DNA from: Pseudomonadota bacterium
GTDB lineage: Bacteria; Pseudomonadota; Gammaproteobacteria; Xanthomonadales; Ahniellaceae
Assembly (NCBI GenBank): GCA_036723735.1
Contig: DAIMGT010000003.1
Span: forward strand, 72,243 to 96,242
Direction of reading: 5' to 3'
Length of the DNA: 24,000 nt
Every line of letters begins with the position of its first letter. The first letter of the stretch is position 1. The position numbers and the translations under genes were made by a program. Positions 1,678 to 24,000 of the stretch are shown here, in pieces. Below the pieces are notes generated by a model. That model had not been told where the DNA came from. It ran no database searches and was given only the letters and a program-made list of their open reading frames with translations.

Positions 1678-2256
1678 CTACTCCCGTATGGCCTCGATCT
1701 CGAGCACGATCTCGACGTCGTCGGCGATCGCCGCCGGCAGGCGCGAGATGCCGAACGCGCGGCGGCTGAGCGTGGTGCGCGCCGAGAACCCCGCGGTCTG
1801 CTTCAGGTTGAAGGTGTTGCGCCCGACGCGATTGCGCGTCACCTCCAGGACCACCGGCCGCGCGACCCCGCGCAGTTCGAGCAGGCCGTGCACGCGGGCG
1901 GTGGATTCGCTTGTCGGCTCGATGCGCTGGCTGGTGAACCGAGCCGCGGGGAAGCGCCCGGCGTCGAAGAAGTCGTCGGAGCGCATCTTCTTCTCCCATG
2001 CGGCATCGCCCAGCCACAGTGAGTCGACGTCGATCGTGGCCTCGACCCGGCCGGCGGTCCAGTCGTCCGGGTCGAAGTCGATGCTGCCCGTCACGCCGGT
2101 GAAGCGGCCCATCTGGCGCGAAAAGCCCAGATGGTCGGCGAAGAACAGCACCTGGCAATGCACCGGATCGAAGCGCCATCGCACCGGCGCGTCCTGGGCG
2201 CCGGCAGCGCGGGCGAGACCCAGGACAAGGGCGAGCAGGGCGATGGACCGGCGCAT
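1678..2256 (-). CDS. yceI: YceI family periplasmic protein (second copy)
   Basis: The track ORF 1678..2310 begins at a TTG. The internal ATG at 2256 gives a canonical signal peptide, [22 protein letters not shown]. The body ([25 protein letters not shown] ... [10 protein letters not shown] ... [13 protein letters not shown]) is YceI-like. The start could instead be 2310. Confidence 0.82.
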
Positions 2257-2376
2257 GGAAGCCAGTGTGCCCGCAAAGACGTGCAGATGGCGCGTGCGCC
2301 GTGGCGCCAAGCACCTGCGCGGCCGACGGACCGGCTATTCTTCGCGGCGGCGCACGCGGGGCGGGTGGGACGACAG

Positions 2377-5300: not shown

Positions 5301-5954
5301 CACCGGCCCGGGCATGGACGCCGACGCGGTGGCGAGGCTGTTCGGCCGCTGGGAGCAGGGCCGCGGGCCACGCCGCCGCGGCAGCAGCGGGCTGGGACTG
5401 TCGATCAGCCGCCGGCTGGTCGAACTGATGGGCGGGCGGATTGCGGTCGACACCGCGCCCGGCGCCGGCGCCACCTTCCGTGTCCATCTCGTCCTGCCGG
5501 CCTGCGACCCGCCGGCCGCGCCGTCGCCGCGCGGCGAGCCGGTGGCGGCGGCCAGCGGCGGGTTGTCGCTGCTGCTGGTGGAGGACGACGCCGTGGTGCG
5601 CGAGGCGCTGGTCGGGCTGCTGGGCGCCGCCGGGCACCGCGTGGAGGCGGGCGCGAACGGGCTGGATGCGCTGCGCCTGCTGGGCGAGCATCGCTTCGAC
5701 GCCGCGCTGTTCGACCTCGACCTGCCGGGCGTGGACGGGCTGCGCCTTGCCCGCATGGTGCGCAAGCGCCCCGGCGCGGAGGCCGCGCTCCCGCTGCTGG
5801 CGATCACCGCCAACGCCGCACCGGGGATCGAACTGCAGTGCCGCGAGGCGGGCTTCGACGCCTTCGTGCGCAAGCCGGCCAGCCTGCAGGTGCTTGGCGC
5901 CGCCCTGCTCATGGCGGTCGCGCATCGACGCGTGACGACCGTCGGGGACGGTGC

Positions 5955-5958
<4 letters not shown>
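2377..5958 (+). CDS. Hybrid sensor histidine kinase with periplasmic beta-propeller / Y_Y_Y sensor and C-terminal receiver domain
   Basis: 1193 aa from ATG 2377 (alternative ATG 2398). N-terminal signal/TM segment [17 protein letters not shown]. Many ~40-aa blades ending WVAT/WAGT/WVGT (two-component-regulator propeller type). Y_Y_Y-like segment [18 protein letters not shown]...[12 protein letters not shown] helix [18 protein letters not shown]-box [16 protein letters not shown]-box [13 protein letters not shown]-boxes DTGPGMD and GSSGLGLSI. Receiver: [12 protein letters not shown] ... [11 protein letters not shown] ... LLAITAN ... VRKP. Confidence 0.9.
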
Positions 5959-13047: not shown

Positions 13048-13189
13048 GGGGGTCCTTCGGAAGTGGCGCCCGTCCCGACCTGGGCGCGGGCCAAGCCTAC
13101 CGCAACGCAGCAGAGCGCGGCAGTCCGCCATTCGGGCCCGCTGGGCATGCCGTGGCAGCCTGTCGTGTGCGGGGCTCGGCGACCGCGAA

Positions 13190-13209
13190 TCATGCACTCG
13201 CATGCATGA
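13190..13209. promoter_or_regulatory. Candidate operator: 7-bp inverted repeat TCATGCA-N6-TGCATGA upstream of the glucan synthase
   Basis: tcatgca ctcgca tgcatga is a perfect dyad in a locally AT-richer patch, about 145 bp upstream of ATG 13047. Another GCATGC lies at 13146-13151. No regulator is identified. Confidence 0.25.
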
Positions 13210-13262
13210 CCAGCGCGCGGGCCATTCATGGCCTGCTTGAGACGCTGTTCTTTCGCACCCTC

Positions 13263-14090
13263 TCAGCGCCCGCGGCGCCGCAGCCCCGCCAGGGCCGGCA
13301 CCAGGGCCAGCGCGGCGAACAAAAACAGCGGCAGCATCAGACGCGGCTCGGACAGCAGGCCGATGTCGATCCGCTCGCGGCTGGCGATCACATGCGCCAG
13401 CCCGGCGCCCACAGAGGCGTTCACCGTGCCGGTGAACCAGGCGCCGATCGCGGTGGCGGCCAGAAACAGTGGCCAGCGACAGCCGAGCCAGGCCAGCGCC
13501 ACGCTGAACGGGCCCAGCGGGAACATCGGCAGCAGGCGCATGAAGAAGGTGTAGCTCGCCGGATTGCGCAGGTAGCCGTCGCGCACGCGGGCCAGCAGCG
13601 CGGGCGGCTGGCCGCCCGCGAACCAGTGGCGGGATGCGCCGAACAGCAGACTCGAGCCCAGCAGCCCGCCGGCCATCCCGATCGCCCCGCCGATCCAGGT
13701 GCCGAACAGCACCCCCGACAACACCACGATGGCCAGTGCCCCAGGCAGTCCCGTTGCGATCACCCCGCCGGCGGCCAGCGCGAGGCCCGCCATCGTCGTC
13801 CAGGGATGCGCGCGAGCCTGCGCCTGCAGCCACTGCTGCTGGTCTGCAAGCCGGTCCAGCGCCAGTTCGCGAAACAGGCCGCTGGCCAGCAGGAATGCGC
13901 CGCCGCCGAGCAGGACCAGCAGCGGCAGCGCGCGCGCCAGCCGTGCGCGCCGGCCGCGCTGGAACTGCACCGCCGCATCGACCAGCGGTGCGAGTTTGCG
14001 CGCCTCGGCGACGTCGCGGGCGATGGCGTCGCGGGCGCGCGCGACCGGGTCGGCTTCGCCTTCACCCGCGGGGCGCTGCGTCGGGTCCAT
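13263..14090 (-). CDS. DedA superfamily / TVP38-TMEM64 (VTT domain) membrane protein
   Basis: 275-aa ATG ORF. A charged N-terminal cytoplasmic region is followed by 5-6 hydrophobic helices. It has the glycine-rich re-entrant-type motif FGTWIGGAIGMAGGLLGSSLLFGASR, and MRLLPMFPLGPFSVALAW. Codon third positions are G/C-rich. Confidence 0.78.
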   Translation of the reverse strand: MDPTQRPAGEGEADPVARARDAIARDVAEARKLAPLVDAAVQFQRGRRARLARALPLLVLLGGGAFLLASGLFRELALDRLADQQQWLQAQARAHPWTTMAGLALAAGGVIATGLPGALAIVVLSGVLFGTWIGGAIGMAGGLLGSSLLFGASRHWFAGGQPPALLARVRDGYLRNPASYTFFMRLLPMFPLGPFSVALAWLGCRWPLFLAATAIGAWFTGTVNASVGAGLAHVIASRERIDIGLLSEPRLMLPLFLFAALALVPALAGLRRRGR

Positions 14091-14165: not shown

Positions 14166-17078
14166 TCAGTCCGCCGCGGTGGCGGGCTCGAAGCCGGCAG
14201 CGAAGATCGAATCCTGCGGCCCGAAACCGGGCAGCGCAATGTAGGCCACGAGCGGATCGTGATCGGACAGACGAACCGGAATCGCCGGGTCGGCGCGGTT
14301 GTCCTCGCCGAAATCGGCATTGATGCGCGCATGTTCGAGCCGGATTCCGGTCGCCGCCTTCGCCAGCGCCCCACTGACCAGGACATGGTCGAGCGACTGC
14401 GCATTGCCACTGAACAGGAAGCTGTAGCGCTCGGTGATCGGCGTGTCCGGAGACAACGCGAGGTTGAGGAAGTCCGGCGTGACCAGATCCACGCCATCGC
14501 CCGGCACCAGGGTTTCGTTGTCCGGCGCGGGAGCGCCGGTGACGACGCCCATCATGTCCACGAAACCGTCGTTGAACTCGAAAGCGTTGAAGTCCCCGAC
14601 CAGCACGATGTTCTGGTTCGGGTTGCCGGTCTGGCGCGCCTGGATGGCGTTGGCCACGAAGCTGGCCTGCTGCAGCCGCTTGAGCCGGACACGATTTCCG
14701 GTGGTGCCGAAACACGCTGCGTCGCCGGTGGCGGCTACGGTACTGTTGATATCGCTGAGCGAGCGGAAGTGATTGACGATCACCGTGATCGGGGCGGTGG
14801 CGCCGTTCCCGGCCGCCACGGTGCCGTTCAGCAACAGCGAAGGACGGTCGTTCAGCAGTTCGGTCGCGACCGGGGTGCCATCGGGGCAACGCAGCAGTTC
14901 CGATGCGCCGAGCTGCTCTACCGCGCCGGTGATCGTCACCCGCGGCGTACTGCCCGTGACCGGCGCCGTCCGCACGAGGAAGCCGACATCGATGCCGCCG
15001 ACGTCGTTGCCCTCCACCAGTCGCGGCACGTACAGCGGGTTGGGCTGGCCTGCGGCCACCGCGTCCACGTTGATCCGGGTCGCGAGCGCCTGCAGCGTGG
15101 CCAGGTTCTCGACCTCCACCACGCCGAGGATGTCCGGTGTGCGCAGGAAGTCTCGGATGCCGATCGAGGCCTTCGCGAGGCGGTTCTGGAACGCCTGCGG
15201 CGTGAGGACCGGCTCGCCGATCGCCGGGTCGTTCTGATCGTCGAAGAACCGCTCCAGGTTGTAGGCGGCGACCGTGATCTCGGCGGCCGTAGGCGCGGAC
15301 GCCGCGGCCGGGGCGCGGCCTCCGGCGATCGCCGGCGCGGCGTCGAAGTCGACCGTAATGCGGTGGTTGCGGAACCCGTAGTCGAGCACGCCCACCACGT
15401 TCGACAGGGTGGCGCCGACGTCGACGTCGATCGAGGCGCGCAGCGTGCCGGCGGCGTTGCGGGCGCGCACGGTCTCGATGTTGAGTTTTTCCGGATTGTT
15501 GTCCCAGCGCGGGATGGTCGCAGGCTGCCCGCCGGCGTCTTCTACCTCGAGGCCTGATTCGCGGAAGGGGCGCGGGACGCCGGAGACCACGCCGTGGAAG
15601 CGCCCGTTGGTGGCGGCGGTGGCGTTGACTTCGCTGACGGTGCCGTCGGTCGGCGCGACCACTTCCAGCACCGGCACGCGTACCCGCATGTTCTCCAGCC
15701 GCTCCAGTTGCTCGACGCCGCCAGTGACCGACGGCGAGGCCGGCGTGAGGTCGACGGGTGCGGGCAACGGATTGCCGGTGGAAATCTGCACGATCGTCGG
15801 CGTCGTCACCTGGGTCAGCGGCTGCTGGTTGGGGTCGGTCGGCGGGATGAACTCCGCCACGGTGCCGGTGACCTGCAGCAGGTTGCCAACCGTAGCCGCC
15901 GCCGAAGGCGCCGAACTGGTGAACACGAACAGGCCTTCCGAGGTGTTCGGGTTCGCGTCCTCGTCGCTGGCTTGCGACTGCAGGTAGAAGCCGTTGTTGA
16001 TGCGGCTGGTGACCACGCCGCGTACCGAGACCGATTGTCCGAGCAGCGGCGACGCGGCACCGGTGCCCTGCAACGTGCCGATCGGGGTCAGGACGACGTC
16101 ATCGTTGCTGATCGTGCCCTGGCCTTGGCCGTCGCTGACGGTGGCGCCGGTCACGTTGGTGACGTTGACGAAGAAAGTCTCGTTGGGCTCGATCGTGGTG
16201 TCGCCGTTGACCGAGACCGCGAAGGTGAATGTGCCGGCCCCCTGTGCGATGGTCTGGCCGGTCAGCGAGGCAGCGACGTAGTCGTTGTCGGCCACCGTCG
16301 CGGTGTTGTCGGCGGTGGCGATGTCGAAGGTCACGCCGCCTGCGCCGGCAGGTTGCGACAGCGAGACGGTGAGCGTTGCGGTCGTGGTTCCGCTGTTGCC
16401 TTCGACCACCGACACGTCGTTGATCGACAGCGCCGGCGTGCCGCCGCCGCCGCAGGGCGCGGCCGCCGTGGCGCTGTTGCGCGGCGCCGGAGCTGCGACC
16501 GTGAAGTCGGTGCCGTTCTGGTTGTTGTCGGTGCAACCGCCACCGCCGCGCAGCGCGGCGGTGGTGTTGGAAAGCACACCGACCGCAGCGGAGCCCTCGA
16601 AGCAGTTGGCCGATCCGTAGCCCACGAAGTCGACGATCTGTGCGCCGGTCGGACAGGCGCCCGTCTGCACGGTCGTTGTGTTGGCGAGCAGCACCTTTCC
16701 GTTGGTGCCCGAAAGGTTGATCGGCGTGCCGCTCATGATGAAGTCGGGCGTCGGGAGGGCCACGCCGTTGCCCGTTCCCGGTGCGAGCTGGATCAGCAGA
16801 TAACGGCCCGGCGCGAGAACGGTGCCGGCGGGGATGTCGAACTTGTTGGTCCAGGACGTGCCGGTCGACGATGAGTACTGGATCGAATGGCCGCTCAGGT
16901 CGACGCTGGAGCCGCCCCGGTTGAAGATCTCGACGAAGTCGTGGGTGAAGGGCGCCCCGACATTGCCACCGCCGCCGTAGGCCTGGCTGATGACCGCCTG
17001 CGCATGCACCGCAGGCACTGCGACACATCCGACGACAAACAGGAACGCGGCACACCCCGCAGACTCGCGCTGCAACAT
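14166..17078 (-). CDS. Secreted ExeM/NucH-type extracellular nuclease: LTD domain + Calx-beta domain + endonuclease/exonuclease/phosphatase (EEP) domain
   Basis: 970 aa from ATG 17078. Signal peptide MLQRESAGCAAFLFVVGCVAVPAVHAQA; a VVGC lipobox-like motif is also present. LTD-like N-terminus: ISQAYGGGGNVGAPFTHDFVEIFNRGGSSVDLSGHSIQYSS...GRYLLIQL. Calx-beta: LSINDVSVVEGNSGTTTATLTVSLS...DYVAASLTGQTI...EPNETFFVNVTNVTGATVSDGQGQGTISNDD. EEP domain: ITVAAYNLERFFD, LGVVEVEN, VIVNHFRS, VLVGDFNAFE, SLDHVLVS, LSDHDPLVAY. Confidence 0.88.
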   Translation of the reverse strand: MLQRESAGCAAFLFVVGCVAVPAVHAQAVISQAYGGGGNVGAPFTHDFVEIFNRGGSSVDLSGHSIQYSSSTGTSWTNKFDIPAGTVLAPGRYLLIQLAPGTGNGVALPTPDFIMSGTPINLSGTNGKVLLANTTTVQTGACPTGAQIVDFVGYGSANCFEGSAAVGVLSNTTAALRGGGGCTDNNQNGTDFTVAAPAPRNSATAAAPCGGGGTPALSINDVSVVEGNSGTTTATLTVSLSQPAGAGGVTFDIATADNTATVADNDYVAASLTGQTIAQGAGTFTFAVSVNGDTTIEPNETFFVNVTNVTGATVSDGQGQGTISNDDVVLTPIGTLQGTGAASPLLGQSVSVRGVVTSRINNGFYLQSQASDEDANPNTSEGLFVFTSSAPSAAATVGNLLQVTGTVAEFIPPTDPNQQPLTQVTTPTIVQISTGNPLPAPVDLTPASPSVTGGVEQLERLENMRVRVPVLEVVAPTDGTVSEVNATAATNGRFHGVVSGVPRPFRESGLEVEDAGGQPATIPRWDNNPEKLNIETVRARNAAGTLRASIDVDVGATLSNVVGVLDYGFRNHRITVDFDAAPAIAGGRAPAAASAPTAAEITVAAYNLERFFDDQNDPAIGEPVLTPQAFQNRLAKASIGIRDFLRTPDILGVVEVENLATLQALATRINVDAVAAGQPNPLYVPRLVEGNDVGGIDVGFLVRTAPVTGSTPRVTITGAVEQLGASELLRCPDGTPVATELLNDRPSLLLNGTVAAGNGATAPITVIVNHFRSLSDINSTVAATGDAACFGTTGNRVRLKRLQQASFVANAIQARQTGNPNQNIVLVGDFNAFEFNDGFVDMMGVVTGAPAPDNETLVPGDGVDLVTPDFLNLALSPDTPITERYSFLFSGNAQSLDHVLVSGALAKAATGIRLEHARINADFGEDNRADPAIPVRLSDHDPLVAYIALPGFGPQDSIFAAGFEPATAAD

Positions 17079-17616
17079 TTGACCCCCGGTGAGGAACGAC
17101 CTGATTGACAGGGCGGCGGAGGCTACCAGCAGTCGCTGACGCTTTCATGTCCGAACCGGTGTGCGGGTCCTGCCTGTGCCGCCCGTGTGAAGGCCGCGTA
17201 GGAGGCGCGAGGTCCACAGACATGCGGGTGCCCGGCAAAGTCGCCAGGTAGCCTACAGCCGATTCCTGCACTCCGTGCCGCGGGACGTGTTCAGAGGCGT
17301 TCCAGGTCGCAGTTCTTGTTCATCCTCGGGCGCGCTTGTGCAAGGCGGGGCGAAGCGATGGGCGGCGCCGACTGCATCCTGCGCGATCGGCGAGGCAGGC
17401 AGCGTTGCAGAAGACGCCACGGAATGCGCCGTGCGCGACGGTGCTTGTGCAGCCTGGGCCGGCCGGCAGGGCGCGAAGCGGCCCGCCGTGAGAAACCGGT
17501 CGAATGCCCTGCGTCCCGCTTTCTGGTTTCGGGCGGGAAGGGCGACGACGATGTTCGGACAGCGCGTGGTTCAAGGCAGTGCGGCAGCGGAGGCCGCTGA
17601 ATCGGATGGGGCGCCG

Positions 17617-19533
17617 ATGCAGGCTGGCGGGCGCATCGCGCGCCGGTACGCTGGCGGGACGAGGGGGGCTGCGCAGTTGCGCATCGGCACGCGGGCGTCG
17701 GCGTTGGCTGCGCTGCTGCTCGCCTCGATCGCGAGCTCGCCGCTGCGCGCGCAGAGCCAGACCGTGACCGTCGGGCCCGCGCTGGGCTGCACCTCGACGA
17801 CGCTGGCCGGCGCGCTTGCCGGCCTGCCGCGGCTCGGGCCCGGGGTCGTCCATCGGGTGCGGGTGATGAGCGCAAGCCCGATCACCGGCGGGGCGACCCT
17901 CGATCGCATGTCGGTGCGCATCGAGGGCGGCCATACGAGTTGCACATCCGCGGTACCGCAGCCGGGCGTGCTCTCGCGCATCAGCGGCACGGCGGCGGTG
18001 CCGCTGCTGCGCCTGCGCAACGTCACGGAGCCGGGCGCCGAGTACCGGGTCGAACTGCGCCAGCTCGAATTCCGCGACGGCCCGGCCGGCGCGATCGAGG
18101 TGGACGGACGCGTGGCGTTGAGCCTCGACGCGGTGGAACTCACCAACAACCGCGCACCGATCGGCGGTGGCCTGCGCGTGATCGGGCGGCCCGCGGGCTG
18201 GACGAACGGCGCGCTGGTGTCGTTCGGCGATGGCGTGGTGATCAACGCCAACGAGGCGGTCGCCGGCGATGGCGGTGGCATCCACTGCACGGCGGGCGGC
18301 GGGCTGGGGCCCGCGGGCGGCGGCCTGCTGCTGGTGATCAACAACGTCGCCAGCGGTCGCGGCGGCGGGCTGTACCTCGCCGGCTGCGACTTCGGCGCAC
18401 CGCCGATCGGGGCCGCGCCCGGTGTTCGCATCGCCAACAATCGCGCGGCGGGTGGTGGCGGCGCGGCGCTGGTCGACAGCACCGCGCAGGTCGCCGGCGC
18501 GGGTTTCGACATCGAGTCCAACAGCGCCGTCGGTGCCGGCGATGGCGGCGGCCTGCTCCTGCAGCGCGCGGTGCTGCGCGCCACCGCGTCGCTGCGCCTG
18601 GCGGGCAATCGCGCGGGCGGCAGCGGCGGCGGCGCGTGGATCGATTCGGGGCAGCTCGAACTGCAGGCAGCGACCTGGGACGTGCGAGGCAACACGGCGC
18701 TGGTCGGCGGTGGCGGACTGCACGTGCAGGGGGACTCGCTGCTGGAGACCTCGGGCAGCGGCGCCTGCCGCGAGGCCTGCGTGCGGATCGAGGATAACGA
18801 GGTCACCGGCACCGGCATCAACCAGGGCGCGGGAGGCGCGCTGGTCGCGCTCGACAACAGCGTGGTCGCCTGGGACCGGGTACGGGTGCGCGGCAACCGG
18901 TCCGACTCGGCGGCGGTGCTGTTCGCGCGTGGCGCAGCGCCGTTCGGCGTGGCGGTCGAATGGTCCAACGTGCTGGCGTCCGCCAACTCCGGCGCCTACC
19001 AGTTCGGCTTCGAGGGTGCGCCGTTCGTGGTCGGCTCCGGCGGCGTGGCGCTGCGCCTGCGCCTGGCGACCCTCGCCGCCAACGAGGCGCGCGCCGCGGG
19101 ATCCGCGGTGCCGCAGGCATTCCGCTTGTTCGATGGCGCCTCGCTGGCGCTGCGCGGGGTGGTGGTCGACCAGCCGGGCTGGCAGACGCTGGGGACCCCC
19201 GTCGGTGCGCAGGTCGCCCTGTCCGGCGCCTGCGTGATCAGTCGCGAGGCGACCAGCCTGGCCACGCGCGGCGTGCCCGCGCTGGCGGCCGATCCGCGCC
19301 TCGATGCCGCGGTGCGTCTGCGCGCCGACAGTCCCGCGATCGACGCCTGCCCCATCGCCGCGCTGGACGATCCCGCGGCCCTGCTCGGCGCCGCACCGTT
19401 GCAGCAGGATCTCGACGGCGCGCGGCGCCCGGTGCGCGTGCGCGCGGCGGTCGGCGGCAGCGAGTACGACGCGGGCGCGCAGGAGTACGCCGAGCGCGTG
19501 TTCGGGTCGGGCTTCGAGAGCGGTGCGGACTGA
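17617..19533 (+). CDS. Secreted right-handed parallel beta-helix protein with polymorphic-outer-membrane-protein-type GGG repeats (choice-of-anchor-Q-like)
   Basis: Real part of track ORF 17275..19533. Signal peptide RIGTRASALAALLLASIASSPLRAQS. There are at least 8 coil repeats of the form N-x-A-x-x-GGG(I/L): NNRAPIGGGLRV, NEAVAGDGGGIHC, NNVASGRGGGLYL, NNRAAGGGGAALV, SNSAVGAGDGGGLLL, GNRAGGSGGGAWI, GNTALVGGGGLHV, QGAGGALVA. C-terminal DLDGARRPV...EYDAGAQEY resembles the D-x-D-G-x-x-R ... D-x-G-A-x-E ending of this family. Start candidates are ATG 17551, ATG 17617 and TTG 17677. TTG 17677 has GAGGGGGG upstream and gives the most canonical signal peptide. The stop is firm. Confidence 0.78.
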   Translation: MQAGGRIARRYAGGTRGAAQLRIGTRASALAALLLASIASSPLRAQSQTVTVGPALGCTSTTLAGALAGLPRLGPGVVHRVRVMSASPITGGATLDRMSVRIEGGHTSCTSAVPQPGVLSRISGTAAVPLLRLRNVTEPGAEYRVELRQLEFRDGPAGAIEVDGRVALSLDAVELTNNRAPIGGGLRVIGRPAGWTNGALVSFGDGVVINANEAVAGDGGGIHCTAGGGLGPAGGGLLLVINNVASGRGGGLYLAGCDFGAPPIGAAPGVRIANNRAAGGGGAALVDSTAQVAGAGFDIESNSAVGAGDGGGLLLQRAVLRATASLRLAGNRAGGSGGGAWIDSGQLELQAATWDVRGNTALVGGGGLHVQGDSLLETSGSGACREACVRIEDNEVTGTGINQGAGGALVALDNSVVAWDRVRVRGNRSDSAAVLFARGAAPFGVAVEWSNVLASANSGAYQFGFEGAPFVVGSGGVALRLRLATLAANEARAAGSAVPQAFRLFDGASLALRGVVVDQPGWQTLGTPVGAQVALSGACVISREATSLATRGVPALAADPRLDAAVRLRADSPAIDACPIAALDDPAALLGAAPLQQDLDGARRPVRVRAAVGGSEYDAGAQEYAERVFGSGFESGAD

Positions 19534-19549: not shown

Positions 19550-19792
19550 TCAGCCGCCCGGCCGCGTCGGCAGCACGGCCACCGTGACCTCCTCACGATC
19601 GTGGTAGAGCTGCTTGGCGCGCACCGTCCACGCATCGCCCAGCGAATCGCGCAGCAGCGCGATGCAGCGTTGCGTCTCCAGCCAGCGCTTCTTCATCGGC
19701 AGCTTGAGGATGAACACCGACGCGCAGCTGGTCGTGACCTGAGCGAGCCCGCTCAGACCGACTGCCGCGGCGGCGGACAGGTTGCGAATCAT
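19550..19792 (-). CDS. Hypothetical small protein (80 aa), no family recognised
   Basis: ATG ORF. By my count 70 of the 79 codons after the ATG end in G or C, which is the coding signature of this genome. The sequence is not Arg/Pro-rich junk: MIRNLSAAAAVGLSGLAQV...MKKRWLETQRCIALLRDSLGDAWTVRAKQLYHDREEVTVAVLP. The true start could be the internal MKKRW. Confidence 0.5.
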   Translation of the reverse strand: MIRNLSAAAAVGLSGLAQVTTSCASVFILKLPMKKRWLETQRCIALLRDSLGDAWTVRAKQLYHDREEVTVAVLPTRPGG

Positions 19793-20115
19793 CGGCCCCG
19801 GAAAGGTGGCTGCCTCATCGACCGGTTCCCGCAGTCCGCCCGTTCGGCCTGGAGGCTCAACGGCAGCCCCGACGAGATGACGCCTGGAGGCCTGGAGCCA
19901 TTGCGGAAGGGCGCGCCGGGTCGCCGCCGGCCACCTCCGGGAACCGTGACGCGCCCGACCCGGGCGCGGGACTGCCGCGACCCACCGGTGTGCCCGTCCC
20001 GCAACGGGGCGTGATCAGGAAATCCGCCGGGTTGCGCGTCATGACCACGAGCCGGTGCATCCGGCTGCCGGCGCGGCACGTCCGGCCCGATCCTCTAGCC
20101 ACTGTGGAGCAACGC

Positions 20116-20181
20116 ATGCGTCGTTCATCTCGGATCGTATTGCTCGGGTTCCTGTTTCTGTTGGTGGGTGCTGCATCCGCA
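20116..20181 (+). other. Sec-type signal peptide of the giant protein
   Basis: MRRSSRIVLLGFLFLLVGAASA has a positively charged n-region, a hydrophobic core and an A-S-A cleavage motif. Confidence 0.75.
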
Positions 20182-23100
20182 TGGGTAAGCACCGGATCCG
20201 AAGGCATCGGCGGACCGACCGTCGTGGGCGACGCCCCCCGCGTGATCACGGACGCGCGCAAAGGCGGGGTAACCTTGCCTCCAAGCCCCTGTGACTGCCC
20301 GCCCGATACGATCTGCCTGCCGCAGCCACGAGTGGGCTTCGTCACTCCGGAGAGCGGCGCGACGTTCCAGCGTGGAACACCGGTCGATGTTGAAGTCTTC
20401 GGCTGTGATCTCGGGGGAAATGGCAACGAAACCATTTCGACCTTTGTGGCCTGCCCGGGTTACTCAGCCGGCTACTCTGTCCGCTCGTTCAGATTCACCC
20501 CGGCGGCGGCCGGTACCTGCACGCTCACCGCCTATGGCGACGGCTCGCCGATGTCCGCCGATAAGGCGGCCAAGGTCGCGCCAGCCACGCTGACGATCTC
20601 GATCCTCGACAGCAACGCACCGCCGACGCTGGAGATCTTCAGCCCGGCTCCGCAGACGAACTACATTGCCCCGGCGAACGTCGAGATCGGTGCGCTCGCG
20701 ACCGACCCGAACGGCACCGTGTCGATCGTCGAGTTCAGGGTCACCAACCGGGACACGGGCGCGATCATCTCCACCGGGTCCGATACGACATCGCCGTACA
20801 ACGCGACGGCCAACGGTGTCGGCGTCGGCAACTACCGAATTCTCGCGCGGGCGATCGACAACGAGGGCGCGGCCACGGAGGCCATCCGCGACTTCGGCGT
20901 GTCGCGCGAGAATCGGGCGCCGGTCGTGACTTGGGTGGCGCCGGCCGCCGGCAACATCCTCGTGCCCTCGGTGATCCGCCTGCAGGCGAATGCATCGGAC
21001 CCCGATCCGACGGATGTGGTCACGGTACAGTTCTTCGCCGACGGCCAAGCAATCAGTAGCCAGCTGAACGCGCCGTATCGATTCGACTGGTCGCCGCCAA
21101 TCCCCTCGCAACCGCGCACGTATCAGCTCACGGCGCGCGCCTCGGATGGGCGAAGCACGACGATCTCTGCGCCGGCCGTGTCGATCACGGTCACGGAGAA
21201 CCGGGCGCCGACGGTGGCCTTGGCCGTCGACAACACCTGGCCAGTACTGTCGCCCGGACAGGCCATCCTGAACGCGACCGTGACCGAGCCCGATGGTCAA
21301 GCCATCAGTCGCGTGGAGTTCTACCGCGTGGTAGGCGGCACCGAGCAGCTCATCGGCACGGCCACCGCGCCGGCACAATCGAATCCCCCGCTGCAGCCTA
21401 GCCCGGTTCGCTACAGCGTGACTTGGGCGAATCCACCGGTCGGCCCGCATTCCCTGATCGCCCGCGCGTTCGACAGCGCGCCTACGCCGCGATCGGGAAC
21501 CTCGCCGTCGGTGCCGTTGACCGTCGCGGCGAACCGCAGTCCGTCGGGCATCGCCGTCAAGAGGCCGTTCCCGGGTCAGAATTGCCCGAGCTCGGGCAGC
21601 TTCGAGTACTCGGGCAACATCCGCGTCGGTCCCGCGGCAGGACCGCTCACGGTGGAGGCCAACGTGGCCGATCCGGACGGCGACATCCGACGGGTGGAGT
21701 TCTTCCAGTTCTCGCCGAACATCATCACGCCATCGACCTCCGGCAACGAAGCCCAGCAGTTCGCGGCGATGATCTTCGGCGCTCACGGCGCTACGTCCAC
21801 GAGCCGGATCGCGACGGTTCATGCCTCCGCGCCGGGACAGACGGTCTTCACGACCGACATCAATCTTCCGGCGCTGCGCGTCACGCCGTTCATGACCGGC
21901 ATCTATGCGGTCGGCTACGACAGCGGTGATCAGGTCGTCAACGCAGCGCTCGCGACCACGCCGGACCCGCCGATCGCCTTCATCGGCGGGTGCGCGACGA
22001 ACTGGACTTATTGGCGCTGGGCGCCGATTGCCTACAACCCGTCCAACGTGCCGCCGGGCATGGGCAACCCCTGTGGCTCCGATCCGGCGAATCCGGGCCA
22101 GTGCGCCAGCCGCCCGCATTCGGTGCCCGGTCGCATCGAGGCCGAGCGCTACAACCAAGGTGGTCAGGGCATCGGCTATTTCGAGATCGATCCCTACACG
22201 TTCGAGATCGATCCCTACACGCGCGTCGGTGCGACGACGCCGATCCGCCCGCGCACGGACGACGTGGATCTGCGCAACTGTGAGCGCAGTGATCTTGACC
22301 CGAGCTGCACCGTCGGCCGACTGAGGCCCGGTGAATGGCTGAAGTACACGCTGAACTTCACGCAAGGTGGTCAGTACCGTCTCATCGCCTGCCTGAGCCC
22401 GTCCAACGGCCTCGGCCAGGCCACCCGTTCGCCCGACGGCGAGACGCGCCTGAAGCTCGATGTGGAGACCATCGGCGAGAGTGGGTGGGTCTACTCGTCG
22501 CGTTCTCTCGAGCTGCAGCCGCTTTCCCAGGCAGCGCCCACGGAGCGTGCGCAGATGGAGCGCGCCGCGACGTCATCGCCCTGCGCCGGCAATCCCGAGA
22601 TCCAGTACGGGATCCTGGGTGTGTTTCCAAGCGGATTCCGCGCCGACATGCGGGTCCGATTCAACAACACGGTCGTGGAGGCGAACAACAACCTCGACTG
22701 GTTCCAGCTCGACCTCGCCGGCCCGGAGTCGCTGGCAGTCCGCTTCGAAACCCCCAGCAACGGCGACTCGGTGGCAGTGGGAACCACCGCTCGGCTGCCG
22801 CTGGTGGCGAACGTGACCTCGAACAACGGCAGCACGGCGGGCATTGCGGTCGACTTCCAGGTCCAGCGCCCGGGTTCGTCGGGCTTCGTGACCTTCCAGA
22901 CCGCGGCGAGTGCGCCGTTCGTGGCGGACTTCCCACCGGTCGGCGGGTCCGTGCCTGGCTTCACGGTGCCCGGAAACTACGTGTTCAGGGCGGTCGCGCG
23001 CGCCGGCGTGCTGTCTGCTGAAACGCTGGTCACCGTGACCGCCACGGCGAACCCGGCCAATCAGGCACCGGTGGTGACTCTGGTGCCCCCGGCCAACGGC

Positions 23101-24000
23101 GGCATCGTGAACATCGGCAGCACCACGACGTTCGCCGTCGACGCGCGCGATCCGGATGGCACGGTGACGGAGGTCGAGTTTCTGCGCAATGGCATTTCGT
23201 TCTCGCCGCGCCTGGTGGCGACTCCACAGGGCTTGACCGACCGGTACACGGCGAACTGGACGGCCGGCACGACGCCCGAGACGTTCCGCCTGTCGGCGCG
23301 TGCGCTGGACAACCGCGATCCGCCCGGTGTTGGTGTTGCCGTGACGGGCGCGGACATCATCGTCGCGGTTCCCGGCAGCGTGCTGGCCCAAGAGACGCCC
23401 GACGCGATTCCATCCACCATCGCACCGGAATCGGACGGTGTGGGCGCTACGGCCGGCACGTTCCGGGTCGACGAGACCGGTGCGGCTACCTATACCATCC
23501 CGCTGGCCACTGTGCCCGGGCGTGGTGGCGTCGTACCGGAGCTGGCTGTGTCCTACTCCTCGCAGGGCGGGCTGGGCGTGCTCGGTCGCGGTTGGTCGGT
23601 GTCCGGTGCGTCGGCGATCATGCGTTGCCGGCAGACCCGTGAGAACGGCGATGCGGCTGCGGCGCTGTCGGGCAGCCCGCCGCTGTCGTTCGATCAGCGC
23701 GACCGCTACTGCCTCGATGGGCAGCGTTTGCTGCTGGTGTCCGGCAGCTACGCCGGGCCGACGGCGGAGTTCCGCACCGAGCTCGATCAGTTCGCGCGCA
23801 TCCGCGCCTACGACGTCGACGCGACCAATGGCTTCGACTACTTCGTGGTGCAGCGCAAGGACGGCACCACGGCATGGTACGGCGACCGCATCGCGGTGAA
23901 CGGCCTGCCGTTCCTGCCGTCGGCCACGCAGACCATCCAGCGTCCGGATGCCGCACTTCGACGCAACGCCGGTAACGGCGTGCTGCCGCCCAACAACGCA
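20116..24000 (+). CDS. Giant secreted multidomain protein, 5' partial (at least 1295 aa, runs off window): signal peptide + Ig-like domain array + CBM6-like module + SpvB/TcB-type N-terminal domain; candidate Rhs/YD-repeat or Tc-like polymorphic toxin
   Basis: This ORF is not in the supplied track, presumably because it has no stop in the window. I translated frame 1 codon by codon from ATG 20116 (GGAG at 20106-20109) to 24000 and found no stop. N-terminus MRRSSRIVLLGFLFLLVGAASA|WVS. Domain evidence is listed in the sub-features below. Confidence 0.9.
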   Translation, partial: MRRSSRIVLLGFLFLLVGAASAWVSTGSEGIGGPTVVGDAPRVITDARKGGVTLPPSPCDCPPDTICLPQPRVGFVTPESGATFQRGTPVDVEVFGCDLGGNGNETISTFVACPGYSAGYSVRSFRFTPAAAGTCTLTAYGDGSPMSADKAAKVAPATLTISILDSNAPPTLEIFSPAPQTNYIAPANVEIGALATDPNGTVSIVEFRVTNRDTGAIISTGSDTTSPYNATANGVGVGNYRILARAIDNEGAATEAIRDFGVSRENRAPVVTWVAPAAGNILVPSVIRLQANASDPDPTDVVTVQFFADGQAISSQLNAPYRFDWSPPIPSQPRTYQLTARASDGRSTTISAPAVSITVTENRAPTVALAVDNTWPVLSPGQAILNATVTEPDGQAISRVEFYRVVGGTEQLIGTATAPAQSNPPLQPSPVRYSVTWANPPVGPHSLIARAFDSAPTPRSGTSPSVPLTVAANRSPSGIAVKRPFPGQNCPSSGSFEYSGNIRVGPAAGPLTVEANVADPDGDIRRVEFFQFSPNIITPSTSGNEAQQFAAMIFGAHGATSTSRIATVHASAPGQTVFTTDINLPALRVTPFMTGIYAVGYDSGDQVVNAALATTPDPPIAFIGGCATNWTYWRWAPIAYNPSNVPPGMGNPCGSDPANPGQCASRPHSVPGRIEAERYNQGGQGIGYFEIDPYTFEIDPYTRVGATTPIRPRTDDVDLRNCERSDLDPSCTVGRLRPGEWLKYTLNFTQGGQYRLIACLSPSNGLGQATRSPDGETRLKLDVETIGESGWVYSSRSLELQPLSQAAPTERAQMERAATSSPCAGNPEIQYGILGVFPSGFRADMRVRFNNTVVEANNNLDWFQLDLAGPESLAVRFETPSNGDSVAVGTTARLPLVANVTSNNGSTAGIAVDFQVQRPGSSGFVTFQTAASAPFVADFPPVGGSVPGFTVPGNYVFRAVARAGVLSAETLVTVTATANPANQAPVVTLVPPANGGIVNIGSTTTFAVDARDPDGTVTEVEFLRNGISFSPRLVATPQGLTDRYTANWTAGTTPETFRLSARALDNRDPPGVGVAVTGADIIVAVPGSVLAQETPDAIPSTIAPESDGVGATAGTFRVDETGAATYTIPLATVPGRGGVVPELAVSYSSQGGLGVLGRGWSVSGASAIMRCRQTRENGDAAAALSGSPPLSFDQRDRYCLDGQRLLLVSGSYAGPTAEFRTELDQFARIRAYDVDATNGFDYFVVQRKDGTTAWYGDRIAVNGLPFLPSATQTIQRPDAALRRNAGNGVLPPNNA
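20614..21990 (+). other. Array of four bacterial Ig-like domains (units start about 20614, 20911, 21199, 21532), preceded by a Cys-containing Ig-like N-terminal unit (~20290-20610)
   Basis: Recurrent unit pattern: N-(R/A)-(A/S)-P ... (A/T)-(S/T/x)-D-P-(D/N)-G ... V-(E/Q)-F(F/Y/R) ... Y ... (L/I)-x-A-R-A-x-D ... (I/L)-(T/S)-V. Examples: NAPPTLEIFSP..ATDPNGTVSIVEFRV..YRILARAIDNEG; NRAPVVTWVAP..ASDPDPTDVVTVQFFADG..YQLTARASDG; NRAPTVALAV..VTEPDGQAISRVEFYRV..HSLIARAFDS; NRSPSGIAV..VADPDGDIRRVEFFQF. The fourth unit is long and divergent. Confidence 0.7.
22117..22716 (+). other. CBM6/CBM35-like carbohydrate-binding module inside the giant protein
   Basis: HSVPGRIEAERYNQGGQGIGY matches the I-E-A-E-x-Y opening typical of CBM6-type modules. 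LRPGEWLKYTLNFTQGGQYRLIACLS matches the G-(D/E)-W-l-x-Y-x-v-x-v-x-x-x-G-x-Y-x-l motif. The module ends near NNNLDWFQLDL. It contains an unusually long, partly low-complexity insert. Confidence 0.55.
22180..22221 (+). repeat. Perfect 21-bp tandem duplication, in frame (FEIDPYT FEIDPYT)
   Basis: ttcgagatcgatccctacacg at 22180-22200 is repeated exactly at 22201-22221. 22180 is a codon start in the 20116 frame. Confidence 0.97.
22717..23370 (+). other. Two further Ig-like domains of the giant protein
   Basis: SLAVRFETPSNGDSVAVGTTARLPLVANVTS...YVFRAVARAG...VTVTA, then NQAPVVTLVPPANGGIVNIGSTTTFAVDARDPDGTVTEVEFLRNG...FRLSARALDNRD...IIVAV. This is the same unit pattern as the upstream array. Confidence 0.65.
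23455..24000 (+). other. SpvB / TcB (TcaC-TcdB) N-terminal-type domain, truncated by window end
   Basis: GTFRVDETGAATYTIPLATVPGRGGVVPELAVSYSSQGGLGVLGRGWSVSGASAIMRCRQT. This follows the hallmark G-x-A-x-Y-x-I-P-(I/L)-x-x-P-P/x-G-R-x-G-x-x-P-x-L-x-L-x-Y-(N/S)-S ... G-x-G-W-x-(L/V)-x-G-x-x-x-I-x-R-x-T pattern. That pattern occurs at the start of Tc-toxin B subunits and many Rhs/YD-repeat proteins. It is followed by YCLDGQRLLLV and EFRTELDQFARIRAY. Confidence 0.75.

What the first reader, a model, noticed from the sequence alone, without database searches (positions are those of the whole stretch)
20116..24000. Giant secreted ORF absent from the ORF track: Ig-array + CBM6-like + SpvB-type domain, a possible self-targeting Rhs/Tc-like toxin with no TcA partner in view
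Seen directly: frame 1 is open from ATG 20116 to the window edge (1295 codons). It has a good RBS and a Sec signal peptide. The only long ORF listed here (20464..22365, minus) is an Arg-rich antisense shadow. Established knowledge: the SpvB-type motif at 23455-24000 is the N-terminal hallmark of Tc-toxin B subunits and of many Rhs/YD-repeat polymorphic toxins. In those proteins it is followed by FG-GAP/beta-propeller and RHS-repeat shell regions enclosing a variable C-terminal toxin. Inference: about 1100 aa of Ig-like domains plus a sugar-binding module precede the SpvB-type domain, behind a Sec signal. That is not the canonical TcB or T6SS-Rhs layout. No TcA-like, PAAR or VgrG gene lies upstream in this window. 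The Ig/CBM region may therefore act as a built-in glycan-directed receptor-binding arm, functionally like TcA receptor-binding domains or the wall-binding region of Bacillus WapA.
Basis: partly seen in the sequence, partly recalled or inferred. Interest (0 to 1): 0.85.

Follow-up and report, generated by a model that had tools for sequence, protein, structure and literature searches.

The report
Giant Rhs toxin with sugar-binding arm
The window ends inside a real, intact gene for a roughly 3,600-residue exported bacterial toxin: a protein shell that encloses a swappable poison, carried on a long arm of antibody-like domains plus a probable sugar-binding module. This is a recognised class of bacterial weapon, but nobody has worked out how this Sec-exported, partner-less type reaches its target.

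Summary
Frame 1 is open from ATG 20116 to the window edge (1,295 codons). It shows coding-type GC3 (0.83), a GGAG ribosome-binding site and a Sec-type signal peptide. The antisense ORF is a 24%-Arg shadow.

Domains found:
- six Big_7-type Ig domains;
- a CBM6/35-like module, supported by three weak but concordant lines of evidence;
- a genuine SpvB/TcB-type N-terminal domain.

The window's own continuation could not be retrieved. A sister allele (P0080 on contig L159; 94% protein and 94.8% DNA identity right up to the window's last base) runs to 3,584 aa. It continues through an FG-GAP propeller, TcdB_midN, RHS/YD repeats and an Rhs core ending in DPSGL. A Gly-rich pre-toxin segment and a variable tail follow, then an abutting small ORF. 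Alleles at least 90% identical to each other carry three unrelated tails. dN/dS is 0.27.

Novelty is limited, however. Zhang et al. (2012) already defined the class "signal peptide + SpvB + propeller + RHS" and noted accreted sugar-binding or adhesion modules. Long N-terminal arms are also common among this protein's relatives.

The arm's role (target binding versus producer-surface retention) and the route across the outer membrane remain untested.

The parts
20106..20109 (+). Ribosome-binding site GGAG, six nucleotides upstream of the start codon
   Evidence: Read directly from the sequence. The identical upstream sequence and start are present in sister locus L159.
20116..20181 (+). Start codon and Sec-type signal peptide (residues 1-22, MRRSSRIVLLGFLFLLVGAASA|W)
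   Evidence: The sister allele P0080 has the same N-terminus. Related family members also carry a hydrophobic N-terminal segment before SpvB. No predictor was run.
20284..20610 (+). N-terminal tip domain with six Cys (residues 57-165, PCDCPPDTICLPQP...); fold unassigned, possibly Ig-like
   Evidence: Conserved in the orthologues L001 and L081 and in P0081. No Pfam hit, no homologues found, and only a non-significant PDB hint to a bacterial Ig domain at E 0.26.
20614..21498 (+). Three tandem Big_7-type Ig domains (residues 167-256, 266-352, 362-461)
   Evidence: Pfam Big_7 at E 7e-34. Self-built HMM domains at E 1e-22 to 4e-27.
21529..21975 (+). Fourth Ig-like domain with a large insertion (residues ~472-620)
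   Evidence: Partial self-HMM match at residues 499-566, E 5e-10. The unit is collinear in L001 and L081.
22078..22725 (+). CBM6/CBM35-like beta-sandwich module with Cys-rich loops (residues ~655-870)
   Evidence: Sub-threshold Pfam CBM_6 and CBM_35_2. PDB CtXyl5A CBM6 at E 0.0038 for the single sequence and 6.5e-5 for the orthologue profile. Homologues P0078 and P0079 carry CBM_6/CBM_35. Foldseek top hits are CBM6 and CBM35, on a model with pLDDT 58.
22180..22221 (+). Perfect 21-bp in-frame tandem duplication (FEIDPYT twice) in a loop of the CBM-like module
   Evidence: TRF reports two copies at 100% match. The duplication is absent from the 94%-identical alleles P0080 and P0243.
22735..23328 (+). 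Two further Ig-like domains (residues 874-967, weak; residues 982-1071, strong)
   Evidence: Self-HMM E 0.0057 and 5e-23. The same pair precedes SpvB in L001, L081 and P0081-83, P0088, P0128 and P0182.
23431..24000 (+). SpvB/TcB-type N-terminal domain (residues ~1106-1295), cut by the window edge; it marks the start of the cocoon part of the protein
   Evidence: Pfam SpvB at 36.2 bits, above the cut-off of 22. YenB (PDB 4igl) at E 1e-5 and SpvB (PDB 6p0x). In a library of 1.84 billion proteins, 7,868 cluster representatives match at E <= 1e-10.
20116..24000 (+). The N-terminal 1,295 codons of a gene expected to run about 6.9 kb beyond the window (~3,590 codons in all)
   Evidence: Sister alleles P0080 (3,584 aa) and P0243 (3,597 aa) are 94% identical over all 1,295 residues. 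L159 aligns to window 19696-23999 at 94.8% nucleotide identity.

Best explanation
Window 20116-24000 encodes the first third of a ~3,600-residue, Sec-exported polymorphic Rhs toxin of the SpvB/TcB type, the 'TcdB/TcaC class' of Zhang et al. 2012.

Shown:
- The window part has a signal peptide and then a ~1,070-residue arm: a Cys-containing tip domain, four Ig domains, a CBM6/35-like module and two more Ig domains. The SpvB domain that begins the cocoon follows.
- In 94%-identical alleles the chain continues through an FG-GAP beta-propeller, TcdB_midN, RHS/YD repeats and an Rhs core ending ...YTDPSGL. A ~180-residue Gly-rich hydrophobic pre-toxin segment and a ~150-residue variable tail come next. 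A different small ORF abuts the stop codon in each lineage.

Inferred from established knowledge of TcB-TcC and Rhs structures:
- The RHS shell, closed by the SpvB and propeller end, encapsulates the C-terminal cargo.
- The cargo is cut free inside the shell by the aspartyl-protease activity of the Rhs core.
- The abutting ORF is the cognate immunity protein.

Inferred, not tested:
- The arm is an accessory adhesion device. Its Ig domains act as spacers, and the CBM-like module (perhaps also the tip domain) binds a surface polysaccharide.
- My committed reading (about 0.45) is that it concentrates the cocoon on a competitor or prey cell surface or matrix, doing in cis what TcA receptor-binding domains do in trans.
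- Retention on the producer's own surface is the main alternative (about 0.3).
- The conserved Gly-rich segment may help the payload cross the target envelope.
- The route across the producer's outer membrane is unknown. Candidates are the T2SS, vesicles or lysis.
For: The gene is real and intact:
- Open frame with GC3 of 0.83.
- dN/dS against sister locus L159 is 0.27 overall, 0.26-0.41 in every arm segment and 0.16 in SpvB.

Window domains:
- Big_7 and SpvB above the curated cut-offs.
- A YenB match.
- An Ig map of six units.
- CBM6/35 evidence from four sources.

Continuation of the gene:
- P0080 is 94% identical over 1,295 residues and 3,584 aa long. It has FG-GAP, TcdB_toxin_midN, RHS_repeat, YD_repeat_2x and Rhs_assc_core at residues 3178-3246.
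- L159 matches the window's DNA at 94.8% right up to base 23999.
- The more distant orthologues L001 (3,672 aa) and L081 (~3,900-4,034 aa) are collinear and have the same architecture.

Polymorphic-toxin signature:
- The core ends in DPSGL.
- Within one cluster of sequences at least 90% identical, the sequence is ~96% identical up to ...GGKFANGA-TAAFARAFN. Beyond that point there are three unrelated tails.
- A different ORF abuts the stop codon in each lineage: a 407-aa Sel1-repeat ORF in L159, a 169-aa multi-TM ORF in L001 and a 189-aa ORF in L081.
- One clade member ends in Peptidase_M23, E 6e-21.

The gene stands alone:
- No TcA-sized ORF lies within 10 kb of any fused family member.
- No neighbour gene is conserved.
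- Nothing TcA-, PAAR- or VgrG-like lies in the window.

The arm is a swappable module:
- Relatives carry Big_7 arrays, fn3, discoidin, PQQ-propeller, He_PIG or Golvesin_C arms, or no arm at all.

Literature:
- The class definition and the accreted adhesion modules (PMC3482391).
Against: - The RHS part is not in the window, and the window's own downstream sequence could not be obtained. The continuation rests on sister alleles and orthologues.
- The window allele's payload is unknowable from these data, because there are three different tails within one cluster of sequences at least 90% identical.
- The CBM assignment is below Pfam's curated threshold and rests on a modest model. No sugar-binding residues were verified.
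- Most family members in genomes (125 of 150 loci) have no arm. The arm is therefore not required for export or for cocoon function.
- No outer-membrane secretion route is evident, and a folded cocoon may be too large for known secretins (inference).
- A TcA encoded elsewhere in the genome cannot be excluded.
- The signal peptide was judged by eye only.
Confidence: 0.78

Rival explanations
1. Same protein, but the arm serves the producer. The CBM-like and Ig array binds the producer's own LPS or exopolysaccharide and holds the cocoon on a stalk at the cell surface. This would make it a contact-dependent weapon, comparable to the wall-binding region of WapA or the S-layer and cell-wall anchors of bacterial teneurin-like proteins.
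For: Zhang et al. 2012 propose exactly this for N-terminal sugar- or peptidoglycan-binding modules of Sec-exported polymorphic toxins. The bacterial teneurin-like protein preprint reads N-terminal adhesion modules as governing surface display. Ig arrays are typical stalks (established knowledge). An NdvB-like glucan synthase gene lies 6 kb upstream in the window, though this is only circumstantial.
Against: After signal-peptide cleavage there is no lipobox or other anchor. The arm is highly variable in kind across relatives, including discoidin and PQQ propellers. 83% of the loci lack an arm altogether. Nothing distinguishes self glycans from target glycans in silico.
Confidence: 0.3
2. It is a conventional fused TcB-TcC subunit that docks onto a TcA pentamer encoded elsewhere in the genome. 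On this reading the arm is an add-on.
For: SpvB, the FG-GAP propeller and TcdB_toxin_midN are the TcB hallmarks, and the N-terminus aligns to YenB. Only 20 kb upstream and, in the sister locus, 1.4 kb downstream are visible.
Against: A Sec signal peptide is present, whereas a canonical Tc toxin (that of Yersinia entomophaga) is released by T10SS-dependent lysis of specialised cells (PMC10847048, title and abstract as listed). That canonical Tc subunits lack a Sec signal is from my own knowledge; the paper's body was not read. No TcA-sized ORF lies within 10 kb of any of the dozens of fused family members examined, and no neighbour is conserved. Zhang et al. 2012 treat this architecture as a separate polymorphic-toxin class.
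Confidence: 0.08
3. It is a non-toxic giant surface adhesin or matrix protein, teneurin-like, that has kept the shell only as a scaffold.
For: There are large Ig arrays and a lectin-like module, and no known toxin domain was found in the sister allele's tail. Metazoan teneurins show that such repurposing can happen.
Against: The Rhs core with its DPSGL cleavage motif is conserved. Tails are swapped between near-identical alleles. Lineage-specific abutting ORFs are present. One clade member carries an M23 peptidase tail.
Confidence: 0.05
4. It is a pseudogene or an assembly artefact, for example a chimeric join of an Ig-array gene to an Rhs gene.
For: The gene is repetitive and was fragmented in several short-read assemblies.
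Against: The same collinear architecture appears in independent assemblies and in distant orthologues. dN/dS is 0.27. There are no stops in 1,295 codons.
Confidence: 0.02

Closest known systems
'TcdB/TcaC-type' polymorphic toxins (Zhang, de Souza, Anantharaman, Iyer & Aravind 2012, Biol Direct 7:18)
   Same: The architecture matches the published definition: signal peptide, SpvB domain, integrin-like (FG-GAP) beta-propeller, RHS repeats, variable C-terminal toxin and an adjacent immunity gene. The same paper notes that some polymorphic toxins have accreted carbohydrate-binding or adhesion modules.
   Different: Here ~1,070 residues (tip domain, six Ig domains and a CBM6/35-like module) are inserted between the signal peptide and SpvB. 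CBM6/35 is not among the adhesion modules that paper lists. The toxin-swap junction lies ~180 residues after the Rhs DPxGL motif, at the end of a conserved Gly-rich segment. No paper found in these searches reports experiments on this class.
Tc toxin B-C subunits (YenB/YenC of Yersinia entomophaga, PDB 4igl; TcdB2-TccC3 of Photorhabdus)
   Same: It has a SpvB-type N-terminal domain, a propeller gate, TcdB_mid, an RHS cocoon, the Rhs-core aspartyl autoprotease and an encapsulated variable toxin. The window's residues 1107-1173 align to YenB residues 23-86.
   Different: B and C are fused into one chain. It has a Sec signal peptide and a huge N-terminal arm. No TcA gene is in view or near any relative. 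A canonical Tc toxin is released by T10SS-dependent lysis (PMC10847048, title and abstract only).
Bacterial teneurin-like proteins (e.g. Bacillus inaquosorum BiTLP; bioRxiv 10.1101/2025.11.11.687626)
   Same: These are Sec-exported YD-shell toxins with an invariant shell, variable N-terminal adhesion modules (including bacterial Ig domains), polymorphic encapsulated C-terminal toxins and immunity genes.
   Different: Their shell is closed by an FN-plug and an NHL propeller with a TIP domain. Here the closure is SpvB plus an FG-GAP propeller plus TcdB_mid, and no NHL, FN-plug or TIP was detected. This is a different branch of the Rhs/YD superfamily.
Mosquito SGS1 (PDB 8FJP; PMC9935623)
   Same: It is a Tc/Rhs-like cocoon decorated with a CBM and a lectin domain as putative receptor modules. 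Hydrophobic C-terminal helices are stored inside the shell. This resembles the Gly-rich hydrophobic pre-toxin segment here.
   Different: SGS1 is eukaryotic and was acquired by horizontal transfer. Its CBM and lectin domains are inserted within the RHS repeats on the shell wall, not carried on an N-terminal Ig stalk.
T6SS Rhs effectors (e.g. Photorhabdus Rhs1, PMC8636562; Acinetobacter Tse15, PMC11461821)
   Same: They share the RHS cocoon, the DPxGL autocleavage and the polymorphic tail with an immunity gene.
   Different: Those carry PAAR, prePAAR or clade domains, are loaded on VgrG and have no signal peptide. Here there is a Sec signal and SpvB, with no PAAR or VgrG.
CdiA contact-dependent inhibition effectors
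   Same: The logic is modular: a receptor-binding region, a conserved pre-toxin region and then a swappable toxin. The post-cleavage Gly-rich segment weakly resembles DUF637, which precedes PT-VENN in CdiA.
   Different: CdiA is a TpsA filament exported by CdiB and has no Rhs shell. The DUF637 similarity is below Pfam's cut-off (19 bits against 26.6).

Membership tests
Rhs/YD-repeat polymorphic toxin | RHS/YD repeats forming the shell, in the same polypeptide | tested here: met
   Met by proxy only, because this part lies beyond the window. It is present in P0080, the 94%-identical sister allele (RHS_repeat; YD_repeat_2x at E 3.7e-15), and in the orthologues L001 and L081. The window sequence itself ends before this region.
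Rhs/YD-repeat polymorphic toxin | Rhs-associated core ending in the PxxxxDPxGL autoproteolysis motif | tested here: met
   Met by proxy. Rhs_assc_core matches at E 5e-16 in P0080 and 6e-17 in L001. The motif ...NNPLSYTDPSGL|SF is present in P0080, L001 and L081. Cleavage itself was not tested.
Rhs/YD-repeat polymorphic toxin | Variable C-terminal toxin displaced between close alleles, with an adjacent cognate immunity gene | tested here: met
   Met by proxy. Three unrelated tails occur among alleles at least 90% identical. Different ORFs abut the stop codon in L159, L001 and L081. Toxicity and immunity are not testable in silico.
Tc toxin B subunit (TcB) | SpvB-type N-terminal domain | tested here: met
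   Within the window: Pfam SpvB at 36.2 bits, above the cut-off of 22; YenB at E 1e-5.
Tc toxin B subunit (TcB) | FG-GAP-like beta-propeller and TcdB middle region after SpvB | tested here: met
   Met by proxy in P0080 (FG-GAP_3 at E 9e-19, TcdB_toxin_midN at E 3e-10), and in L001 and L081.
Tc toxin B subunit (TcB) | Partner TcA gene in the same locus | tested here: not met
   None in the 20 kb upstream in the window or the 1.4 kb downstream in L159. No ORF of 2,000 aa or more lies within 10 kb of any fused relative. The rest of the genome was not seen.
Tc toxin B subunit (TcB) | Cytoplasmic synthesis without a Sec signal, with release by lysis | tested here: not met
   A Sec-type signal peptide is present and conserved. 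The contrast is with PMC10847048, of which only the title and abstract were seen; that canonical Tc subunits lack a Sec signal is from my own knowledge.
T6SS Rhs effector | PAAR or prePAAR N-terminus, or vgrG linkage | tested here: not met
   No PAAR hit and no vgrG in the window.
Bacterial teneurin-like protein (TLP) | FN-plug + NHL propeller + YD shell superfold with a TIP domain | tested here: not met
   Pfam finds SpvB, FG-GAP and TcdB_midN instead. There is no NHL hit, and only a weak precomputed TEN_YD-shell hit. FN-plug and TIP were not specifically modelled.
CBM6/CBM35 carbohydrate-binding module | Family-level sequence match and beta-jelly-roll fold | tested here: inconclusive
   Pfam CBM_6 scores 16.6 bits, below the 28.9 cut-off. 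The orthologue profile hits a CBM6 in PDB at E 6.5e-5. Homologues carry CBM_6/CBM_35. Foldseek top hits are CBM6 or CBM35 at probability ~1.0, but the TM-score is at most 0.53 on a model with pLDDT 58.
CBM6/CBM35 carbohydrate-binding module | Actual sugar binding and its specificity | not testable with these tools
   This needs glycan arrays or ITC with the purified module.
Big_7 bacterial Ig domain | Pfam PF17957 match above the gathering score | tested here: met
   116.7 bits against a cut-off of 24.1, in three stretches. Six units were found by the self-built HMM.
Sec-exported protein | Cleavable type I signal peptide | tested here: inconclusive
   The n-, h- and c-regions and ASA|W were read by eye. 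There is no lipobox Cys. The segment is conserved in the sister allele. No SignalP-type predictor was available and there are no experimental data.

The most novel reading that the evidence does not exclude
The arm-bearing clade is a single-polypeptide, TcA-independent equivalent of an ABC toxin. The Ig/CBM arm supplies glycan-directed target recognition. After release from the cocoon, the conserved ~180-residue Gly-rich hydrophobic (DUF637-like) segment stored inside the shell forms the conduit that carries the variable toxin across the target envelope. That would be a new, self-contained protein-delivery mechanism that needs no T6SS, TcA or CdiB.
Probability: 0.15. Interest if true: 0.8.

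Novelty: new variant of a known kind. Interest (0 to 1): 0.42.

Why it matters
Sec-signal SpvB-Rhs proteins are very numerous: 7,868 cluster representatives match this SpvB segment at E <= 1e-10. Yet my literature searches here found no experimental study of how such partner-less cocoons leave a diderm cell or deliver their cargo.

The arm-bearing subclade gives a concrete handle on that question. It has a separable, probably glycan-binding module whose ligand would reveal the target. It also has a conserved hydrophobic pre-toxin segment that can be tested for membrane translocation. Modular cocoons with built-in targeting are also of interest as protein-delivery scaffolds.

The finding also shows that a real ~11-kb gene was missing from an ORF track and was hidden behind an antisense shadow ORF.

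Tried and rejected
Attempts to obtain the window's own sequence beyond base 24000 all failed:
- The genome-contig scan found only a 71%-identical orthologue.
- The metagenome-contig scan found only a 68%-identical orthologue.
- Contigs carrying an exact copy of a neighbouring window gene stop at about window position 18180.
- The continuation is therefore inferred from the 94% sister alleles.

Searches and models that gave nothing usable:
- The word-index protein search on the whole ORF was swamped by Big_7 arrays. It missed the 94%-identical P0080, which is in that collection, so negatives from that tool are weak.
- The first AF2 model of the CBM region (a three-sequence alignment) had pLDDT 45 and was discarded.
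- The N-terminal tip domain has no homologues and no significant PDB match.
- The promoter and terminator scan of the upstream gap found nothing.
- Pfam found nothing in the tails of P0080, L001 or L081 apart from a sub-threshold DUF637 match.
- A literature search for SpvB + RHS + Lysobacter returned nothing.
- A search for an accessory or export gene conserved next to fused family members found none.

Readings considered and rejected:
- T6SS effector: no PAAR or VgrG.
- Glycoside hydrolase with CBM and Ig domains: no catalytic domain.
- Tat export: an RR pair is present, but the h-region is strongly hydrophobic and the protein is enormous.
- The antisense ORF as a real gene: 24% Arg and the wrong GC phase.

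Full report
**1. The observation**

Frame 1 is open from ATG 20116 to the last base of the window, 1,295 codons. The window is 71% GC. Across the ORF, GC by codon position is 0.63/0.56/0.83, and this holds in every 600-bp slice. The neighbouring genes show the same signature.

The listed antisense ORF 20464..22365 is 23.8% Arg and has its GC peak at codon position 1.

GGAG sits six nucleotides before the ATG. The N-terminus MRRSSRIVLLGFLFLLVGAASA|W has the shape of a type I Sec signal. This was read by eye, because no predictor was available. The upstream 580 bp looks non-coding. No sigma-70-like promoter or terminator was found there.

**2. Domains within the window**

- Pfam gives Big_7 (E 7e-34, three stretches) and SpvB at residues 1120-1172 (36.2 bits against a cut-off of 22).
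- The SpvB segment aligns to the extreme N-terminus of YenB, a structurally solved TcB (E 1e-5). It also aligns to the SpvB N-domain.
- An HMM grown from the protein's own repeats maps Ig units at residues 167-256, 266-352, 362-461, ~472-620 (with an insertion), 874-967 (weak) and 982-1071.
- Residues 57-165 form a conserved tip domain with six Cys. No fold could be assigned to it.

Residues ~655-870 are the 'CBM6-like' module. The evidence for it is as follows:

- Pfam CBM_6 and CBM_35_2 are sub-threshold.
- The single sequence hits the CBM6 of CtXyl5A at E 0.0038. A profile built only from three orthologues improves this to 6.5e-5, with CBM35 entries trailing.
- The only two homologues found in 5.8 billion proteins carry CBM_6/CBM_35 domains, one of them at E 1.4e-11.
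- An AF2 model from a nine-sequence alignment (pLDDT 58, core 70-82) returns CBM6 and CBM35 modules as its top Foldseek hits. TM-scores are only ~0.5.

I accept a CBM6/35-type fold as likely. Sugar binding is unproven.

**3. What lies beyond the window**

The window's own continuation could not be retrieved. An exhaustive HMMER search with the last 205 residues found P0080. P0080 is 94% identical over all 1,295 residues, starts at the same Met and is 3,584 aa long.

Its contig, L159, matches window 19696-23999 at 94.8% nucleotide identity, right up to the window edge. It is therefore the same locus in a sister strain.

P0080 continues with:

- FG-GAP and FG-GAP_3 repeats, then TcdB_toxin_midN;
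- RHS_repeat and YD_repeat_2x;
- Rhs_assc_core at residues 3178-3246, ending ...NNPLSYTDPSGL|SF.

A second allele, P0243 (3,597 aa), agrees. More distant orthologues are collinear with the window protein over the whole arm and have the same downstream architecture. These are L001 (an Aquimonas MAG, 3,672 aa) and L081 (~3,900-4,034 aa).

dN/dS between the window and L159 is 0.27 overall and 0.26-0.41 in each arm segment. The arm is therefore functional, not decaying.

**4. Polymorphic-toxin signature**

After the DPSGL motif, all family members share a ~180-residue Gly-rich hydrophobic segment (GGKFGHGF...GGKFANGA). It weakly resembles DUF637, the region that precedes PT-VENN in CdiA. The match is below Pfam's cut-off, so this is only a lead.

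Within a single cluster of sequences at least 90% identical, the sequences stay ~96% identical up to ...TAAFARAFN. They then carry three unrelated tails.

A different small ORF abuts the stop codon in each lineage:

- a 407-aa Sel1-repeat ORF in L159;
- a 169-aa multi-TM ORF that overlaps the stop codon by 4 bp in L001;
- a 189-aa ORF in L081.

One clade member ends in a clear Peptidase_M23 domain, E 6e-21. This is a peptidoglycan hydrolase, which points to bacterial targets for at least that member. Other tails show weak metallopeptidase or lipase signals, or nothing. The window allele's own payload cannot be inferred.

**5. Family context**

The SpvB segment has 11,314 cluster representatives at E <= 1e-3 and 7,868 at E <= 1e-10. 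The arm-length figures below come from the relatives nearest to this window's SpvB segment, not from the family as a whole.

- Of the 150 related genome and metagenome loci (the best matches kept from the two scans) whose N-terminus could be determined, 125 have at most 150 residues, a hydrophobic signal-like segment, before SpvB. These genes total ~2,400 aa. Seventeen loci have arms longer than 300 aa.
- Among the 82 full-length representatives within the 150 best matches (clusters at 50% identity), 32 have arms longer than 700 aa.
- Arms are built from different modules: Big_7 arrays, fn3, F5/8-type-C discoidin, PQQ propellers, He_PIG with Big_6, and Golvesin_C.
- The specific layout Ig(n) - CBM-like - Ig(2) - SpvB recurs in at least nine representatives.
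- No TcA-sized ORF lies within 10 kb of any fused member, and no accessory gene is conserved beside them.
- The window's upstream genes are unrelated. They encode cytochrome b561, YceI, a hybrid histidine kinase, a DinG-like helicase, CreD, a GH17-GT2 fusion, an LTD/Calx-beta/EEP nuclease and a 752-aa ORF.

**6. Mechanism**

*Shown:* the architecture described above.

*Inferred from established Tc and Rhs structural biology:*

- The RHS shell, closed at one end by the SpvB and propeller region and plugged by the Rhs core, encloses the C-terminal cargo.
- The core's aspartyl protease cuts that cargo free.
- The abutting ORF is the immunity protein.

*Inferred, not tested:*

- The arm is an accessory adhesion module, with Ig spacers and a lectin-like CBM.
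- I commit to target or matrix glycan binding as its most likely role (~0.45).
- Retention on the producer's surface is the main rival (~0.3).
- Both roles were proposed for such modules by Zhang et al..
- The Gly-rich segment may act in membrane translocation.
- How a ~380-kDa periplasmic protein crosses the producer's outer membrane is unknown.

**7. Comparison with what is known**

- *TcdB/TcaC class.* The base layout is that of Zhang et al. [quoted passage not shown] This protein meets those features. It differs by the ~1,070-residue insertion between the signal peptide and SpvB.
- *Canonical Tc B-C.* It is not one, because it has a Sec signal and no TcA nearby.
- *T6SS Rhs.* It is not one, because it has no PAAR or VgrG.
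- *Teneurin-like proteins.* It is not one, because it has no NHL or FN-plug. Those proteins do show the same design principle of variable N-terminal adhesion modules.
- *SGS1.* This protein shows CBM and lectin receptor modules on an Rhs shell, with hydrophobic helices stored inside.

**8. Verdict**

Novelty is modest. This is a new architectural variant of a computationally defined class, and my searches found no experimental study of that class. The kind of variation, accreted sugar-binding or adhesion modules, had been anticipated in the literature. Long arms are also common among the protein's relatives.

Interest is 0.42. The most novel reading still open is a self-sufficient, TcA-independent single-chain delivery system, with probability ~0.15.

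Noticed in passing
window 22180-22221: A perfect 21-bp in-frame tandem duplication (FEIDPYT twice) sits in a loop of the CBM-like module. It is absent from the 94%-identical alleles P0080 and P0243, so it is a very recent, strain-specific event.
   Followed up: yes
window 20116-24000 compared with L159 423-4288: Synonymous divergence is very uneven along the gene. dS is 0.02 in Ig5-6 (residues 871-1085), against 0.17 in the CBM-like module and 0.20 in SpvB. This suggests recent gene conversion or mosaic recombination within the arm.
   Followed up: partly
P0080, P0242, P0244 (sister alleles); L159 ~10,640: The toxin-swap junction is not at the Rhs DPxGL motif. It lies ~180 residues later, at ...GGKFANGA-TAAF-RAFN(D), the end of a Gly-rich hydrophobic segment that is conserved across the family and weakly DUF637-like.
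   Followed up: partly
window 10393-13833 (-): A large GH17 + GT2 fusion protein (1,146 aa), resembling an NdvB-type beta-glucan synthase.
   Followed up: no
window 14166-17078 (-): A 970-aa secreted-looking protein with a lamin-tail domain, Calx-beta and an endonuclease/exonuclease/phosphatase domain. Exact copies occur in two Logan assemblies, and cluster-mates are named 'predicted extracellular nuclease'.
   Followed up: partly
window 17275-19533 (+): A 752-aa ORF directly upstream of the giant gene has only a sub-threshold Chlam_PMP repeat hit. It is not conserved next to any relative of the giant gene.
   Followed up: partly
window 2131-5958 (+): A hybrid histidine kinase with a Reg_prop/Y_Y_Y periplasmic beta-propeller sensor and a receiver domain.
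   Followed up: no
L031, L032, L055, L060 and similar loci (Polaromonas, Thiobacillus): A split version of the family has a ~900-1,000-aa SpvB protein followed by a ~1,100-1,200-aa second ORF, sometimes in tandem arrays. These loci have their own conserved neighbours of about 170, 410 and 690-770 aa, unlike the stand-alone fused type.
   Followed up: no
L001 13986-14825; L081 19126-20553: Mobile-element genes lie just downstream of the orthologous toxin loci. L081 has an IS66 transposase (Pfam). L001 has an ORF that I judged by eye to resemble a Y1/REP-type transposase; this was not confirmed by any profile search. Synteny around the toxin gene is not conserved.
   Followed up: partly
tool behaviour (against 57, 83): The word-index homology search did not return P0080, although that 94%-identical protein is in its collection. 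Negative results from that tool should be read cautiously.
   Followed up: partly
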